Positions 32,589 to 36,601 of a stretch of DNA of 64,000 nt are shown one piece after another. Position 1 is the first letter of the stretch. Each line of letters begins with the position of its first letter. Position numbers and translations under genes: made by a program. The notes under the pieces are model-generated. The model made no database searches and was not told the origin of the DNA. It worked only from the letters and a program-made list of their open reading frames with translations. This DNA is from Dehalococcoidia bacterium (lineage in GTDB: Bacteria; Chloroflexota; Dehalococcoidia; SM23-28-2; WHTN01), in assembly GCA_009377715.1 (NCBI GenBank), contig WHTN01000003.1, forward strand, positions 14,396-78,395. The letters are read 5' to 3'.

Positions 32589-32745
32589 CGTCTAAAAAAC
32601 CTTCCTTAAATGGTTTTTTAGTTCACATAACCACCTTGCCAAGCGTCTAACCTAAGTCTATAATCCACCCGCACAGATGTCCAGCCGATCAAGACCATGT
32701 TTGATACCTATCCCTTCCGGGCTCTTAAACTAGCTAAGTAATTGG

Positions 32746-33447
32746 ATGAGCAGAGTAAGCGATCTTTACCAGCTTCAGGAGACAGACTTGGCGATAGATG
32801 TAGCGACCGCTTCTCTGACCGATATAGAGGAGCGCCTGAGCCACGACGAAGAGGTGGTGGCTGCTAGAGAAGCTGTTGCGTACCTGGAACAGCGCCTTGC
32901 CCATCTCCGCCGGCAGCAGCGAGACGTCGATCTTGACGCGGAAGACCTACGCCGACGGGTGAAAGCGGCTGAGGATAAGCTTTACGGTGGTTCTGTGCGT
33001 AACCCGCGTGAACTTGAGGACTTACAGAAGGATATTCAAGCTCTGACCCACCAGCTTAGGGGGCGTGAGGATGAAGTCCTTGGCCTGATGATGCAGGCAG
33101 AGGAAACGAACGGCGAGTTGGAGAACGCCAAAAGGCAGCTATCTGAGCTTGAAGCCCAGTGGACTGCCCAACATGAGGAACTACTACGCCAGCAGCAGGC
33201 GGTCCGATCGGAACTAGTAACTTTGGAGCAGCAGCGTGTCGGTCAGCTTCCCCGAGTAGACGCGCCTTCGATGTCGCTTTACTCTTCCTTACGCAAGACG
33301 CGACAAGGCAGGGCCGTGGCTCGTGTGCAGCAGGGGATGTGTCAGGGCTGCCGTATAGCGCTCCCTATGACGGTGCTTCAAAAAGCTAGACCCGGCATAG
33401 AACTCGTTCAATGCCCGAGCTGCGAGCGTATCTTATTCGTGAGCTAA
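32746..33447 (+). CDS. COG1579 zinc-ribbon coiled-coil protein (DUF164)
   Basis: Long coiled coil followed by a C4 zinc ribbon (CQGCRIALP...CPSCERILF). Confidence 0.7.
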   Translation: MSRVSDLYQLQETDLAIDVATASLTDIEERLSHDEEVVAAREAVAYLEQRLAHLRRQQRDVDLDAEDLRRRVKAAEDKLYGGSVRNPRELEDLQKDIQALTHQLRGREDEVLGLMMQAEETNGELENAKRQLSELEAQWTAQHEELLRQQQAVRSELVTLEQQRVGQLPRVDAPSMSLYSSLRKTRQGRAVARVQQGMCQGCRIALPMTVLQKARPGIELVQCPSCERILFVS

Positions 33448-33449
33448 CC

Positions 33450-34862
33450 ATGCAAGCGATCGGTTATTTTTACGTCCCAGAGGGGGGCGGCGATGCTCTG
33501 GCTGAGCGCCAGCACGAATTCGCTGCCTTCTGCAAAAAACAGGGCTATGAGATGGCAGCTACTTTCCTCGACGTATCAGGGCGCAATGGCGATATGTCGG
33601 GTTATACCCAGCTACTGGCCTTTCTTAAGCGGCCAGAGCGAGGCATGGTGGTTGTCGTCGTACCCTCACCTGGCGACCTCGGCCGGACGCCGCGCGAGAT
33701 AATGCGGTCCTACTTCGATCTCGACTCGCTTGGCGTAAACGTCGTTTGCCTTGATGGCACCCCCGATCTCGCGCGTGCCGTACTGGCCGCCTGGCCGACC
33801 TTACAGAACGGTCAGGATGCTGGCGAGAAGGTGCGCGATGCCATGCGCCGCAAGGCAATTAAAGGCGAGGTGTTGGGTCGCGCCGCTTATGGCTACAAGT
33901 CCGGCGCACGGCGTCGCTTGCAAATAGTGCCGGCGGAGGCAGCCGTTGTCCGTTACATCTTCCGGCTTTATCTCCGCGACGGCTTGGGAATACGTCTAAT
34001 CGCCCGCCACTTGAATGAAGAAGGCTTCCACACCCGGCGCGGCGGCCTTTGGAGCATGGTCGGTGTGCGCGACATTCTACGGAACCGGGTATATCTCGGC
34101 ACGTACAGCCGGCTCGGCGTGCGCGTTCCCTATAGCCACCCGGCGATCATCTCCCAGGACGACTTCCGTCGGGTGCAGGAGCGTCTGAACTCGAGGCGTC
34201 CTAGCAGCACGAACCGTGAGACGGCGCTTTTCCTGCTTTCAGGGCTGCTGTATTGCGGATCCTGCGGCAACAAGATGACCGGTGTTACTCGCCGTCAGCG
34301 CTGGCAGCGCAGCGGCGACGGCGGCGAGAGAAGCGCCATGTACCGCTATTATCAGTGCCAGTCACGCATCAATCAGAGCGTATGTAGTTACCGTACACAC
34401 AGGGCAAACGACCTAGAGGAAGCGGTCAGACAGGCGCTTTTAGGAAAGCGTGGCACGGTGGTCGAAGCGATGCCCCAGGCTGGCGATGCTGAGGCAGCTC
34501 TGCACGAAGCGCAAAAGCGATGCGACCAGCTTAAGACTAAGATGGCCCGGCTCGAAAAAAGGCTTGAGACCTATTTGGAGGCAGCCGCCACGGGTAGGGT
34601 AAGCTACGAGCGCCTCCGTAATCTGGGGTCATCTATGGCTGAACAGCGCTTGGTCTTGCTCGAAAGCCTGGAAGAAGCGCAGCAACAAGCGCAAAGGCAG
34701 TCCACAGCGGCTGAACGCCTGAAGAAGCGTTCCGAAGCGCTCGTCCAGTTGACCGGGGAATGGGACTACATGACCCCAGTCCAACGTCAGGCGCTTTTAA
34801 GAGACCTGGTCGACCGGATCACGGCGGAAGAGGGCGACATAAAAGTAACCTTGAGCCATTGA
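33450..34862 (+). CDS. Large serine recombinase homolog with a degenerate catalytic motif (predicted inactive)
   Basis: Full domain architecture: resolvase-like N-domain, recombinase domain, zinc ribbon (CGSCGN...YQCQSR...CS) and C-terminal coiled coil. Where the YxRVS nucleophile motif should be, the protein reads IGYFYVPEGGGD (Arg to Tyr, Ser to Pro). Confidence 0.7.
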   Translation: MQAIGYFYVPEGGGDALAERQHEFAAFCKKQGYEMAATFLDVSGRNGDMSGYTQLLAFLKRPERGMVVVVVPSPGDLGRTPREIMRSYFDLDSLGVNVVCLDGTPDLARAVLAAWPTLQNGQDAGEKVRDAMRRKAIKGEVLGRAAYGYKSGARRRLQIVPAEAAVVRYIFRLYLRDGLGIRLIARHLNEEGFHTRRGGLWSMVGVRDILRNRVYLGTYSRLGVRVPYSHPAIISQDDFRRVQERLNSRRPSSTNRETALFLLSGLLYCGSCGNKMTGVTRRQRWQRSGDGGERSAMYRYYQCQSRINQSVCSYRTHRANDLEEAVRQALLGKRGTVVEAMPQAGDAEAALHEAQKRCDQLKTKMARLEKRLETYLEAAATGRVSYERLRNLGSSMAEQRLVLLESLEEAQQQAQRQSTAAERLKKRSEALVQLTGEWDYMTPVQRQALLRDLVDRITAEEGDIKVTLSH

Positions 34863-34869
34863 CGTTCCA

Positions 34870-35295
34870 GTGGTAACAGAGCGCTGTTGGACCGTCTATG
34901 CCGATGGCGCCTCCCGCGGCAATCCCGGCCCAAGTTCTATCGGCGCGGTCGTCTTCGACCACGACCAAACTAAAGTGCACGAGGTCTCCCGCCGCATAGG
35001 CCGTGGCACTAACAACGAGGCCGAGTATAAGGCTGCCATCGCCGGGCTTGAAGCGGCCCTAGCGCTCGGCGCGCCGTGCATAAAGCTGTACATGGACTCC
35101 GAACTTGTCGTTCGCCAGTTGCAGGGCCGTTATCGAGTGCGAAATCCCAGACTTCAGCCCTTGTGGGGACGTATTGCTGACCTGAGGCGTCGCTTCGGTT
35201 CGTTTCAGGCCGTACACGTGCCGCGAACTCAGAACCAGTTAGCGGATGCTCTTGCCAACCGCGCGTTCACCCAAGCCGACGCCGACGTGACATAG
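34870..35295 (+). CDS. rnhA: Ribonuclease HI
   Basis: GTG start. DGASRGNPGP...NNEAEYKA...D...QN pattern of the RNase H catalytic DEDD residues. Confidence 0.75.
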   Translation: MVTERCWTVYADGASRGNPGPSSIGAVVFDHDQTKVHEVSRRIGRGTNNEAEYKAAIAGLEAALALGAPCIKLYMDSELVVRQLQGRYRVRNPRLQPLWGRIADLRRRFGSFQAVHVPRTQNQLADALANRAFTQADADVT

Positions 35296-35311
35296 CTGAT
35301 ATAATATGGTC

Positions 35312-35668
35312 TGGGCCCAGGAGGCTGGGTAGCTGCGGTCGTCGATGGCGACTCAGGAAAGTCCGAGCTCCACCGGACAGCATGCTGGGTAACGCCCAGG
35401 CGGGGTGACCCGACGGAAAGTGCCACAGAAACCATACCGCTCGCCTTAGCGAGTAAGGGTGAAAAGGTGCGGTAAGAGCGCACCAGCGGCCGGGCGACCG
35501 GCCGGCTGGGCAAACCCCATGCGGAGCAAGGCCAAATAGGAGGGCTTAGGTGTCCGGCCCGCCCTCGGGTTGGCTGCTTGAGGCAGTGGGTAACCGCTGT
35601 CCTAGACTAATGGCTACCGTTCGCTTCGGCGGACACAGAACTCGGCTTATAGGCCTGCTGGACCCTCA
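35312..35668 (+). ncRNA. rnpB: RNase P RNA, bacterial type A
   Basis: GGAAAGTCCGAGCTCC (P4), GTGCCACAGAAA, AAGGGTGAAAAGGTGCGGTAAGAGCGCACC, CAAGGCCAAATAGG and the ACAGAACTCGGCTTATAGG 3' region. Ends ~15 nt before a strong terminator. Confidence 0.85.
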
Positions 35669-35676
35669 ACGACGAT

Positions 35677-35709
35677 TAGCGCGCCGCTAGCGGCGCGCTT
35701 TTCTTTTGC
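35677..35709 (+). terminator. Rho-independent terminator after rnpB (GCGCGCCGCTAGCGGCGCGC-TTTTCTTTT)
   Basis: GC-rich 9-bp stem followed by a T-tract. Confidence 0.7.
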
Positions 35710-35908: not shown

Positions 35909-36601
35909 ATGAATACGACCACCAACATCCGCGATAACCCGCTCGAAGCGATCGCTGCCATAAAAGCTGCCGATCCTGTAATGGCTGCCGTGATCGACCA
36001 GGTCGGCCCATTCGACCTAGGCGCGCGTCGCCCGCCGTTTATGGCCTTAGCAAGAGCCATTGTCTTCCAGCAGCTAGCGACTAAGGCCGCCGCTGCCATC
36101 CTAGCGAGAGTCCTTGCTCTGTACGGTGGTGAATTTCCAACGCCGAAGCAGCTTTTAGCCACGCCCGACATCGAACTGCGCCGTGCGGGGCTATCCGGAC
36201 GCAAGGTGGAGTACCTCAAGGGCCTGGCGTCCGCGTTTTTAAATGGTCTAGTCGATGAGGCCCTCCTCGACTCGCTCACCGACGAAGAGATCGTGTTGCA
36301 GCTAACTCAGCTCAGGGGTATCGACCGCTGGTCAGCGGAGATGTTCTTGCTCTTTTGCCTCGGCCGTCCGAATGTATTGCCGCTAGGCGACCTCGGCCTT
36401 CGCCAGGCCGTCGGCCGCTTGTACGGCCTCGGCTCCTCGCCGACGGATGACGAGATTCGTTCGCTTGCCGAGCGCTGGCAGCCGTACTGTAGCGTCGCTA
36501 CGTGGTACATGTGGCGCAGCCAGTTCACCGTAGCGTTGACGATATGGACGAGCGATCCAGAGAAGGGCGATCCGTCATCGGATGGACAAAAAATGGATTA
36601 A
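35909..36601 (+). CDS. DNA-3-methyladenine glycosylase II-like (HhH-GPD family, AlkA type)
   Basis: HhH motif (LTQLRGIDRWSAEMFLLFCLGRPNVLPLGD) and WYMWRS C-terminal motif. Confidence 0.7.
   Translation: MNTTTNIRDNPLEAIAAIKAADPVMAAVIDQVGPFDLGARRPPFMALARAIVFQQLATKAAAAILARVLALYGGEFPTPKQLLATPDIELRRAGLSGRKVEYLKGLASAFLNGLVDEALLDSLTDEEIVLQLTQLRGIDRWSAEMFLLFCLGRPNVLPLGDLGLRQAVGRLYGLGSSPTDDEIRSLAERWQPYCSVATWYMWRSQFTVALTIWTSDPEKGDPSSDGQKMD

What the first reader, a model, noticed from the sequence alone, without database searches (positions are those of the whole stretch)
33450..34862. Full-length large serine recombinase homolog lacking the catalytic Arg/Ser nucleophile motif
The protein keeps the resolvase N-domain fold signature (IGY..., GDLGRT..., VVCLDG), the recombinase domain, the zinc ribbon (CGSCGN...YQCQSR...CS) and a long C-terminal coiled coil. 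Where serine recombinases have Y-x-R-V-S-T-x-x-Q, it reads IGYFYVPEGGGD. No Ser or Thr is nearby and the conserved Arg is Tyr. This predicts a catalytically dead, possibly domesticated DNA-binding protein rather than an integrase. No attL/attR-like direct repeats, phage genes or low-GC signal flank it.
Basis: seen in the sequence. Interest (0 to 1): 0.65.

Follow-up and report, generated by a model that had tools for sequence, protein, structure and literature searches.

The report
Dead serine recombinase in housekeeping operon
This gene encodes a full-length relative of phage integrases that has lost the residues needed to cut DNA. It has been kept under strong selection across many Chloroflexota species, next to a zinc-ribbon protein gene and the RNase P RNA gene, so it looks like a mobile-element enzyme reused as a non-cutting host factor.

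Summary
ORF 33450-34862 (+) encodes a 470-aa protein with all three large-serine-recombinase (LSR) Pfam domains, four zinc cysteines, a coiled coil and an LSR fold.

In register with gamma-delta resolvase it reads Y6, Y8 (for Arg), P10 (for the Ser nucleophile) and D76 (for R68). This is not a lone pseudogene. More than 400 full-length relatives, all Chloroflexota/Dehalococcoidia where named, lack a conserved Ser10, R68 and R71. Canonical LSRs in the same alignment keep all of them.

dN/dS is 0.06-0.18. The alphaE, recombinase and zinc-ribbon regions are the most conserved parts.

The gene sits 2 nt after a CT398/FlgZ-type (COG1579) zinc-ribbon coiled-coil gene. That gene is immediately upstream in 92 of 95 loci examined, including subfamilies only 30-37% identical with unrelated flanks. 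RNase P RNA (rnpB) usually follows downstream, here after an RNase HI gene.

I found no att-like repeats, no mobile-element genes and no GC anomaly.

Best reading: an exapted, non-catalytic LSR that binds nucleic acid and works with the CT398-like protein. Its target is unknown. I found no description of such a family in the literature searched.

The parts
32636..32664 (+). Sigma-70-type promoter P1 (TTGCCA-17-TATAAT) upstream of the operon
   Evidence: 11 of 12 consensus matches; the TTGnnA...CTATAATC block recurs in 65 non-redundant ortholog intergenic regions. AAGTCTATAATCC occurs exactly only once in the window.
32746..33447 (+). CT398/FlgZ-type (COG1579/DUF164) protein gene: coiled-coil hairpin plus C4 zinc ribbon, 233 aa
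   Evidence: PF24481 CT398_CC (40.4 bits) and PF02591 Zn_ribbon_9 (32 bits). It lies immediately upstream of the LSR-like gene in 87 of 87 close loci and in 5 of 5 loci from distant subfamilies.
33450..34862 (+). Catalytically dead large serine recombinase homologue, 470 aa plus stop
33465..33479 (+). Residues 6-10, YFYVP, at the position of the Y-x-R-x-S catalytic motif (R8->Y, S10->P)
   Evidence: Register. Family-wide variability at this position.
33672..33686 (+). Residues 75-79, GDLGR, at the position of D67-R68-L-G-R71 (R68->D; R71 kept here but variable in the family)
33816..34199 (+). AlphaE C-terminal half, linker (AMRRKAIKGEVLGRAAYGY) and recombinase domain (residues 123-250)
   Evidence: PF07508 covers residues 161-249. 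These are the most conserved parts of the protein: mean pairwise identity 0.81 for residues 123-150 and 0.80 for 151-250. dN/dS for residues 123-340 is 0.03-0.17.
34236..34469 (+). Zinc-ribbon domain (residues 263-340) with C269, C272, C303, C312
   Evidence: PF13408 covers residues 262-330. All four Cys are invariant or at least 90% conserved.
34470..34805 (+). Coiled-coil motif (residues 341-452) embedded in the zinc-ribbon domain, followed by C-terminal strands
   Evidence: the AF2 model has helices 347-380, 386-440 and 443-453 with pLDDT about 85-93. The topology matches the coiled-coil motif of A118 integrase (PMC3783163).
34870..35295 (+). RNase HI-type gene, 141 aa, GTG start
   Evidence: PF13456 (83.9 bits), PF00075 (49.9 bits), and a match to the N-terminal domain of NF005567 'bifunctional RNase H/acid phosphatase'. 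It is downstream on the same strand in 65 of 84 close loci that have enough downstream sequence.
35297..35305 (+). Extended -10 box (TGATATAAT), 11 nt upstream of rnpB
   Evidence: Read in the sequence. A TATAAT/TATACT/TACAAT box lies 8-12 nt upstream of the rnpB 5' end in nearly all loci.
35317..35665 (+). rnpB, bacterial RNase P RNA class A
   Evidence: RF00010, 304.7 bits, full model 1-367. It is downstream of the LSR-like gene in 70 of 87 close loci, in 5 of 5 distant loci and in L094.
35678..35708 (+). Intrinsic terminator closing the transcription unit
   Evidence: 9-bp stem with 8 GC pairs, followed by TTTCTTTTGC.

Best explanation
The gene encodes an exapted, catalytically inert large serine recombinase (a pseudo-recombinase) that is a vertically inherited host gene in Chloroflexota, especially Dehalococcoidia. 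It is not part of a mobile element.

Shown:
- It keeps the whole LSR architecture: N-terminal resolvase-fold domain, alphaE/linker, recombinase domain, zinc ribbon with four Cys, and an embedded coiled coil.
- It lacks the Ser nucleophile and two of the three catalytic arginines.
- The whole family shares this loss.
- The gene is under strong purifying selection.
- It sits in a tight operon directly behind a CT398/FlgZ-type zinc-ribbon coiled-coil gene, usually with rnpB downstream. In this clade an RNase HI gene lies between the two.

Inferred:
- It cannot cleave or exchange DNA strands.
- It still binds a specific, evolutionarily conserved duplex DNA site through alphaE/linker, RD and ZD, as a Ser-to-Ala integrase mutant would, probably as a dimer.
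- It uses its coiled coil for protein contacts, most plausibly with the co-translated CT398-like protein. Homologues of that protein bind sigma-54/RNA polymerase. The dead LSR would then act as a DNA-targeting or DNA-bridging adaptor, linked to transcription or handling of stable-RNA genes such as rnpB and to RNA:DNA hybrids (RNase HI).

My probabilities: inert and exapted about 0.9; binds DNA about 0.6; works with the CT398-like protein about 0.6; acts on RNA polymerase, rnpB or R-loops about 0.3. The overall confidence of 0.55 is for the statement as a whole.
For: - Architecture and fold: Pfam Resolvase, Recombinase and Zn_ribbon_recom all match. The AF2 model has pLDDT 85. Its best PDB matches are the full-length serine integrases SPbeta (9y66/9dxh, E 1e-22), Bxb1 (9iu2), A118 (4kis) and phiC31 (9rah).
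- Lost catalysis, this protein: in register with 1GDT it reads R8->Y, S10->P, R68->D.
- Lost catalysis, family: the nucleophile position is unconstrained, R68 is Ser or His, and R71 is variable in about 410 full-length relatives. Canonical LSRs in the same alignment keep all these residues.
- Experimental basis: Olorunniji & Stark 2009 (PMC2794168) showed that mutating Y6, R8, S10, D36, R68 or R71 greatly reduces cleavage and recombination, while none strongly inhibits DNA binding.
- Selection: NG86 dN/dS is 0.06-0.18 over the whole gene in 14 unsaturated ortholog pairs. It is 0.03-0.32 in the dead N-domain and 0.03-0.17 in alphaE+RD+ZD. Mean pairwise identity is 0.81 (alphaE/linker), 0.80 (RD) and 0.71 (ZD), against 0.56 (NTD) and 0.53 (CC).
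- Host gene, not mobile: it sits at the same position beside yceD-rpmF-fabD in most of 80 GTDB species representatives. Its pairwise distances track those of YceD, RNase H and CT398 (r 0.80-0.86). There are no att-like repeats and no GC anomaly. The best phage and plasmid hits are 22-28% identical. PADLOC gives nothing.
- Link to the CT398-like gene: it is immediately upstream in 87 of 87 close loci, with stop and start 1-8 nt apart or overlapping. The same holds in subfamilies 30-37% identical that have entirely different flanks, such as pyruvate kinase.
- Link to rnpB: downstream in 70 of 87 close loci and 20-90 nt after the stop codon in 5 of 5 distant loci.
- CT398 family background: HP0958 and CT398 bind RpoN. 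The mycobacterial homologue ML1638 is predicted to dock on RNA polymerase beta' (bioRxiv 10.64898/2026.07.15.738315). COG1579 genes are known neighbours of rnhA, rnpB, rpoD-dnaG and NIF3 (PMC3372290, PMC8469502).
Against: - No DNA target was found. No positionally conserved att-like palindrome lies within -350 to +1500 nt of the locus in about 90 genomes.
- Physical interaction with the CT398-like protein is inferred only from gene order. The mirror-tree partial correlation does not discriminate: 0.49 for CT398 against 0.44 for YceD.
- One subfamily (P0154, P0206) keeps the dead LSR without an adjacent CT398 gene.
- RNase HI is absent downstream in 17 of 84 close loci with enough downstream sequence, and two more carry only a weak opposite-strand match. 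rnpB is absent nearby in about 17 of 87.
- The N-terminal half of alphaE contains Pro and Gly and is modelled with low confidence, so dimer or tetramer formation like a true LSR is uncertain.
- Ser or Thr occurs by chance at the nucleophile position in some orthologs (S in 11 and T in 38 of 119).
- All organisms are uncultured MAGs, so no expression or genetic data exist.
Confidence: 0.55

Rival explanations
1. RNA-directed role. The dead LSR binds RNase P RNA, its precursor or another structured RNA. It would act as an accessory or chaperone in stable-RNA maturation together with the CT398-like protein, whose H. pylori homologue binds flaA mRNA.
For: rnpB follows the gene in about 80% of loci. 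This includes deeply diverged subfamilies where it starts 20-90 nt after the stop codon. The COG1579 neighbourhood elsewhere is rich in RNA functions: rnpB, tRNA-Met, TrmK and RNase H. No DNA site was found.
Against: To my knowledge, no LSR recombinase or zinc-ribbon domain is known to bind RNA. In A118 integrase the RD and ZD contact 25 bp of duplex DNA (PMC3783163). rnpB has its own -10 box in nearly all loci, so the adjacency may reflect ancestry or co-regulation rather than a substrate relationship. rnpB is missing nearby in about 17 loci.
Confidence: 0.15
2. Decoy or guardian against mobile elements. The dead LSR occupies an attB-like site, for example near rnpB, or forms inactive hetero-oligomers with incoming active serine integrases. 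Either would block integration.
For: Its DNA-binding and coiled-coil modules are intact while catalysis is lost, which is the design of a dominant-negative. Stable-RNA genes are common integration targets (general knowledge). In L092 a tRNA, an integrase fragment and IS transposases lie just beyond rnpB.
Against: The RD and ZD are very strongly conserved, and there is no sign of the arms-race diversification expected for defence genes. PADLOC gives no hit. This model does not explain the constant pairing with a CT398-like gene.
Confidence: 0.07
3. It is still a recombinase. It would use a non-canonical nucleophile, or act as the non-catalytic subunit of a hetero-tetramer with an active LSR encoded elsewhere.
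For: Y6 and D36 are kept. R8 is kept in most orthologs, and R71 is kept in this protein. Thr or Ser occupies the nucleophile position in about 40% of the close family. Distant subfamilies have a nearly invariant His at the R68 position.
Against: No Ser, Thr or Tyr candidate is conserved across the family. R68 and R71 are lost together. The N-terminal half of alphaE, which forms the rotation interface, is degenerate. The locus is syntenic and shows no inversion, excision or att signature in more than 90 genomes.
Confidence: 0.05
4. It is a decaying relic. An old integrase gene would persist only because its DNA carries cis elements, such as read-through or promoter sequences for RNase HI and rnpB, with no function at the protein level.
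For: The gene lies between a promoter and rnpB. Catalytic residues are degenerate.
Against: The ORF is intact and of constant length (464-483 aa) in hundreds of clusters. dN/dS is 0.06-0.18 in every domain. There are 62 of 100 RD columns at 90% conservation or higher. The zinc ligands are intact.
Confidence: 0.02

Closest known systems
Phage and ICE large serine integrases (A118 Int, Bxb1 Int, phiC31 Int, SPbeta SprA)
   Same: Same domain order and fold: resolvase-type NTD, alphaE, recombinase domain, C4 zinc ribbon and embedded coiled coil. The G-x-x-x-G-x-x-P-Y/F-G-Y linker and the RD/ZD signature motifs are kept.
   Different: No Ser nucleophile, and R68 (here also R8) is missing. Identity to any phage or plasmid LSR is only 22-28%. 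The gene is not on a mobile element, has no att sites, and is vertically inherited in a housekeeping operon.
Domesticated but active LSRs (SpoIVCA of the skin element, XisF of the fdxN element, CcrA/B/C of SCCmec)
   Same: These are host-retained LSRs. The XisF and CcrC NCBIfam models are the best named matches, at 82 bits.
   Different: The scores are far below those families' cut-offs (375 and 900 bits). Those enzymes keep the catalytic serine and excise a defined element (my knowledge). This protein cannot, and no intervening element exists.
Laboratory Ser-to-Ala serine recombinase mutants (e.g. phiC31 Int S12A, PDB 9tep; Tn3 resolvase S10 and R68 mutants)
   Same: This is the functional analogy. 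Such mutants bind their sites, but cleavage is greatly reduced (PMC2794168; the 9tep entry title appears).
   Different: Those are engineered single changes. Here the loss is natural, involves several residues, is ancient and is fixed in a whole lineage.
COG1579/DUF164 (HP0958 FlgZ, CT398 CdsZ, Rv2229c/MSMEG_4306) gene neighbourhoods with rnhA, rnpB, NIF3 and rpoD-dnaG
   Same: The upstream partner gene belongs to this family. COG1579-RNase H adjacency (Rv2229c-Rv2228c type) and COG1579-rnpB adjacency (B. burgdorferi) are documented (PMC3372290, PMC8469502, PMC7466739).
   Different: None of the described neighbourhoods contains a recombinase-like gene. The LSR-like insert between COG1579 and rnhA/rnpB appears specific to Chloroflexota.

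Membership tests
Large serine recombinase (serine integrase) family | N-terminal resolvase/invertase-fold catalytic domain (PF00239) | tested here: met
   43.5 bits against a 23.3 cut-off; the family profile aligns to 1GDT, 3GUV and 6DGC. Foldseek matches 3guv and 3bvp with TM-score 0.65 normalised to the target.
Large serine recombinase (serine integrase) family | Catalytic Ser nucleophile in the Y-x-R-x-S motif (S10 in resolvase numbering) | tested here: not met
   Pro10 in this protein. The position is unconstrained in about 410 relatives. Control LSRs carry Ser in the same column.
Large serine recombinase (serine integrase) family | Catalytic arginines R8, R68 and R71 | tested here: not met
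   This protein reads Y8, D76 (for R68) and R79 (R71 kept). In the family, R8 is kept in 99 of 119, R68 is Ser (80 of 119) or His, and R71 is variable. The importance of these residues is from PMC2794168.
Large serine recombinase (serine integrase) family | Recombinase domain (PF07508) and C4 zinc-ribbon domain (PF13408) | tested here: met
   73.5 and 53.8 bits. C269, C272, C303 and C312 are conserved.
Large serine recombinase (serine integrase) family | Coiled-coil motif inserted in the zinc-ribbon domain | tested here: met
   helices 347-380 and 386-440, followed by C-terminal strands. The topology matches PMC3783163.
Large serine recombinase (serine integrase) family | Encoded on a mobile or excisable element bounded by att sites | tested here: not met
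   No bracketing repeats. Housekeeping neighbours and fixed synteny in more than 90 genomes. No GC anomaly.
Large serine recombinase (serine integrase) family | Site-specific strand exchange activity | not testable with these tools
   This needs in vitro cleavage and recombination assays.
Developmentally domesticated active LSRs (XisF, SpoIVCA, Ccr) | Score above the NCBIfam equivalog cut-off, plus the catalytic Ser | tested here: not met
   XisF 82.5 bits against a 375 cut-off; CcrC 82.3 against 900. The Ser is absent.
Pseudoenzyme (inactive homologue retained by selection) | Catalytic motif lost, fold retained, purifying selection on the protein | tested here: met
   Searches show the motif loss. 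Searches show the fold. One search gives dN/dS 0.06-0.18, and one search gives the domain conservation.
COG1579 (CT398/FlgZ)-linked operon module | Same-strand, tightly spaced adjacency to a PF24481/PF02591 gene, conserved across divergent genomes | tested here: met
   87 of 87 close loci. 5 of 5 loci from two distant subfamilies with different flanks. Not met in one subfamily.

The most novel reading that the evidence does not exclude
A phylum-level exaptation. A large serine integrase that lost catalysis would have become a housekeeping factor forming a complex with the CT398/FlgZ-type RNA-polymerase-binding zinc-ribbon protein. The dead integrase would supply sequence-specific DNA recognition or DNA bridging. 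The pair would control transcription, or R-loop and RNase HI handling, at stable-RNA genes such as rnpB. That would make it the first pseudo-recombinase with a core cellular role, and it would give a functional handle on the enigmatic COG1579 family.
Probability: 0.3. Interest if true: 0.8.

Novelty: new variant of a known kind. Interest (0 to 1): 0.7.

Why it matters
Serine integrases are studied as mobile-element enzymes and as genome-engineering tools. As far as seven full-text literature searches showed, no natural, ancient, selection-maintained, catalytically dead LSR has been described.

Such a protein shows that the LSR DNA-recognition and coiled-coil machinery can be reused without recombination. 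It also provides a natural 'binding-only' integrase scaffold.

Its near-obligate pairing with a COG1579 (CT398/FlgZ/Rv2229c) protein and with rnpB and RNase HI offers a new testable lead on COG1579. That family is widespread, essential in M. tuberculosis under some circumstances, and of unknown molecular function.

For annotation, hundreds of 'recombinase family protein' or 'site-specific DNA recombinase' calls in Chloroflexota MAGs are likely mislabelled as mobile-element markers. That would inflate mobilome estimates.

Tried and rejected
- Local DNA target: I scanned every locus from -350 to +1500 nt around the gene for 2x23-nt imperfect palindromes of att type. Top scores were 13-17 of 23 at scattered positions, which is chance level.
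- Repeats in the window: only short imperfect matches, none bracketing the gene.
- Conserved upstream block: the yceD/CT398 intergenic region holds a strongly conserved promoter (TTGnCA-17-CTATAATC) and, in one subgroup, a TTGTCCAyCCC box. It has no dyad symmetry that would mark an LSR site. Rfam finds no leader RNA there.
- Mirror-tree co-evolution of the LSR-like and CT398-like proteins: r is 0.86, but the partial correlation (0.49) is no better than for YceD (0.44). This supports vertical inheritance only, not an interaction.
- A mafft --auto alignment of about 410 N-termini misaligned the short catalytic loop (S10 column gapped). I replaced it with an anchor-based count and the L-INS-i alignment.
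- Defence-system models (PADLOC): no hit for the LSR-like protein or RNase H.
- Cluster look-up for names or accessions of the window protein: none recorded.
- A fused-chain AF2 prediction of the CT398-LSR complex was considered and dropped. The tool returns no PAE or coordinates, so an interface could not be judged.
- Literature searches for an inactive or domesticated serine recombinase, for LSRs near rnpB, and for rnpB as an attB: nothing relevant.
Full report
**Observation**

The window carries an ORF at 33411..34862 (+). About 118 full-length orthologs begin M/V-R/K-A-V/I-G-Y-F. This fixes the start at the ATG at 33450, 2 nt after the TAA of the upstream gene.

Pfam finds all three LSR domains:
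- Resolvase, 43.5 bits. The match begins only at profile position 8, just past the catalytic motif.
- Recombinase, 73.5 bits.
- Zn_ribbon_recom, 53.8 bits.

An AlphaFold2 model built on a 37-sequence alignment has mean pLDDT 85. It shows a long helical hairpin at residues 347-440. Its best PDB matches are the full-length serine integrases SPbeta, Bxb1, A118 and phiC31, with E values from 1e-22 to 1e-13.

**Register of the catalytic residues**

A profile of the family's N-domain aligns end to end with gamma-delta resolvase (1GDT residues 1-142). An L-INS-i alignment that includes resolvase and canonical LSRs gives the same register. In resolvase numbering:

| Resolvase residue | This protein |
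|---|---|
| Y6 | Y6 |
| R8 | Y8 |
| S10 | P10 |
| D36 | D41 |
| R68 | D76 |
| R71 | R79 |

Olorunniji & Stark showed that mutating Y6, R8, S10, D36, R68 or R71 of Tn3 resolvase greatly reduces cleavage and recombination, while none strongly inhibits site binding (PMC2794168). Three of those six residues, including the nucleophile, are missing here. Residues 1-37 contain no Ser or Thr.

**A family, not a lone pseudogene**

The word-indexed search returned 1160 hits. The best 120 are 51-67% identical (one partial hit 85%), and the 118 full-length ones measure 452-483 aa. Where named, they come from Dehalococcoidia/Chloroflexota MAGs. An exhaustive HMMER search of 1.84 billion cluster representatives found 167 hits at E<1e-30. 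About 100 are full-length representatives, 28-53% identical, that lack the catalytic set. Canonical LSRs (RVST..., DRFGR) appear only near E 1e-35, and they show every catalytic residue in the same alignment, which serves as an internal control.

Two further searches, seeded with distant members, defined subfamilies in which Pfam mostly no longer detects the Resolvase domain.

Across about 410 full-length sequences the nucleophile position is unconstrained:
- Close family: T38 A14 R12 Q11 S11 P9...
- Second subfamily: E22 K19 G19...
- Third subfamily: P21 L11...

R68 is Ser (80 of 119) in the close family and His (114 of 119 and 65 of 69) in the distant ones. R71 is variable. The shared feature is loss of S10, R68 and R71.

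**Selection**

I computed Nei-Gojobori dN/dS on 14 ortholog pairs with unsaturated dS (0.08-0.93):

| Region | dN/dS |
|---|---|
| Whole gene | 0.06-0.18 |
| Former catalytic domain | 0.03-0.32 |
| alphaE + RD + ZD | 0.03-0.17 |

Mean pairwise identity by region:

| Region | Mean pairwise identity |
|---|---|
| alphaE/linker | 0.81 |
| RD | 0.80 |
| ZD | 0.71 |
| NTD core | 0.56 |
| Coiled coil | 0.53 |

The four zinc cysteines are invariant or nearly so. So the protein is functional, and its nucleic-acid-binding parts are the most constrained. This degree of RD/ZD conservation across many species suggests a conserved target.

**Genomic anatomy in the window**

| Feature | Coordinates | Source |
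|---|---|---|
| Near-consensus promoter TTGCCA-17-TATAAT | 32636-32664 | |
| CT398/FlgZ-type gene (PF24481 + PF02591) | 32746-33447 | |
| Dead LSR | 33450-34862 | |
| RNase HI-type gene | 34870-35295 | |
| Extended -10 box | 35297-35305 | |
| rnpB, RNase P RNA (RF00010, 304.7 bits) | 35317-35665 | |
| Strong intrinsic terminator | 35678-35708 | |

No terminator separates the protein genes from rnpB.

Upstream and divergent lie yceD, rpmF and fabD. Downstream lies an HhH-GPD glycosylase gene. GC content is unremarkable. No repeats bracket the gene.

**Conservation of the arrangement**

I examined 87 loci from the close family: 80 GTDB species representatives plus 7 contigs, some redundant.
- The CT398-like gene is immediately upstream in all 87. 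Stop and start codons are typically 1-8 nt apart or overlapping.
- RNase HI follows on the same strand in 65 of the 84 loci with enough downstream sequence.
- rnpB follows in 70 of 87. This includes loci without RNase HI, where rnpB begins about 90 nt after the LSR-like stop codon.

The most telling result comes from five loci of the two distant subfamilies, 30-37% identical to the query. Their genomes are 2.2-5.5 Mb and their flanks are unrelated (pyruvate kinase, biotin ligase, IS elements). They still show a CT398-like gene 3-9 nt upstream and rnpB 20-90 nt downstream.

One subfamily ('GYLRELP..TLEAQ') differs. P0206 sits in the same yceD...murC synteny with rnpB about 880 nt downstream, but with no CT398 or RNase H gene nearby. 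P0154 also lacks an adjacent CT398 gene.

Pairwise distances of the LSR-like protein correlate with those of YceD, RNase H and CT398 (r 0.80-0.86). This indicates vertical inheritance. The partial correlations do not single out CT398.

**Interpretation**

What is shown:
- A complete LSR scaffold without the nucleophile and two catalytic arginines.
- The loss shared by a large, old, selection-maintained family.
- A fixed housekeeping locus.
- An operon-like, probably translationally coupled, pairing with a COG1579 protein.
- Frequent linkage to RNase HI and rnpB.

What is inferred:
- The protein still binds a specific duplex DNA site through alphaE/linker, RD and ZD. In A118 integrase these contact 25 bp of a half-site, and the coiled coil mediates subunit contacts (PMC3783163).
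- It cannot cut DNA.
- It cooperates with the CT398-like protein.

Homologues of that partner bind sigma-54/RNA polymerase. The mycobacterial homologue is predicted to lie across RNA polymerase beta'. COG1579 genes are known neighbours of rnhA, rnpB, rpoD-dnaG and NIF3. A DNA-targeting or DNA-bridging adaptor for an RNA-polymerase-associated factor at stable-RNA genes is therefore my preferred mechanism, held with modest confidence.

The rivals are:
- An RNA-directed role on RNase P RNA.
- An anti-integration decoy.
- Residual or heteromeric recombinase activity.
- A cis-only relic. The selection data exclude this one.

**Negative results and limits**

- No att-like site was found near the locus.
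- The conserved upstream block looks like a promoter, not an LSR site.
- There are no PADLOC hits.
- The best phage and plasmid relatives are 22-28% identical, with alignments that start after the missing motif.
- All carriers are uncultured MAGs, so there are no expression or genetic data.
- Seven full-text literature searches found no description of a catalytically dead LSR family or of an LSR-like gene in COG1579 neighbourhoods. That library does not cover most subscription journals.

**Verdict**

The feature is best filed as a new variant of a known kind: an exapted pseudo-recombinase of the LSR superfamily, tied to a COG1579-rnpB module in Chloroflexota.

Noticed in passing
window 35317-35665 (+); terminator 35678-35708: A full-length bacterial RNase P RNA (rnpB, RF00010, 304.7 bits) lies 22 nt after the RNase HI stop codon. 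It has its own extended -10 box (35297-35305) and is followed by a strong intrinsic terminator. The ORFs that the ORF listing reports across this stretch are spurious.
   Followed up: yes
window 32636-32700; ortholog loci L007-L087 upstream of the CT398-like gene: The yceD/CT398 intergenic region holds an unusually conserved block, cTTGyCA-N17-TAAGTCTATAATCC, and in many loci a TTGTCCAyCCC box about 20 nt downstream. The conservation extends beyond what a -35/-10 pair needs. It may be a regulator site or a leader element.
   Followed up: partly
window 33411-33449: The database protein for this gene (P0001, 483 aa) starts at an upstream ATG that overlaps the CT398-like gene by 37 nt. Orthologs indicate that the true start is 33450. 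P0058 carries a similar 13-residue extension.
   Followed up: yes
distant subfamilies (P0170-like and P0221-like proteins; loci L088-L092): At the position of catalytic R68 these subfamilies have a nearly invariant His (114 of 119 and 65 of 69), in an x-H-L-G or x-H-L-A motif. The close family has Ser there. This may mark a re-purposed pocket.
   Followed up: no
L094 (P0206), L093 (P0154): One dead-LSR subfamily has no adjacent CT398-like or RNase H gene. L094 is nevertheless in the same yceD...murC synteny, with rnpB about 880 nt downstream. The partner gene was either lost or moved in that lineage.
   Followed up: partly
L092 5841-5915 and 5991-9320; L006 6450-7445: In L092 a tRNA gene follows rnpB directly, then a tyrosine-integrase fragment and two DDE transposase genes, so the rnpB/tRNA end of the module looks like an insertion hot spot. 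In L006 an opposite-strand gene of 331 aa is inserted between the LSR-like and RNase H genes.
   Followed up: no
window 35909-36601 (+); L091 2484-3200: An HhH-GPD base-excision glycosylase gene lies just downstream of the module in the window and just upstream of the CT398-like gene in the distant locus L091. This may be a recurrent neighbour or a coincidence.
   Followed up: no
L030 6570-6706: A c-di-AMP riboswitch (RF00379, 83.6 bits) lies downstream of the module in one ortholog locus.
   Followed up: no
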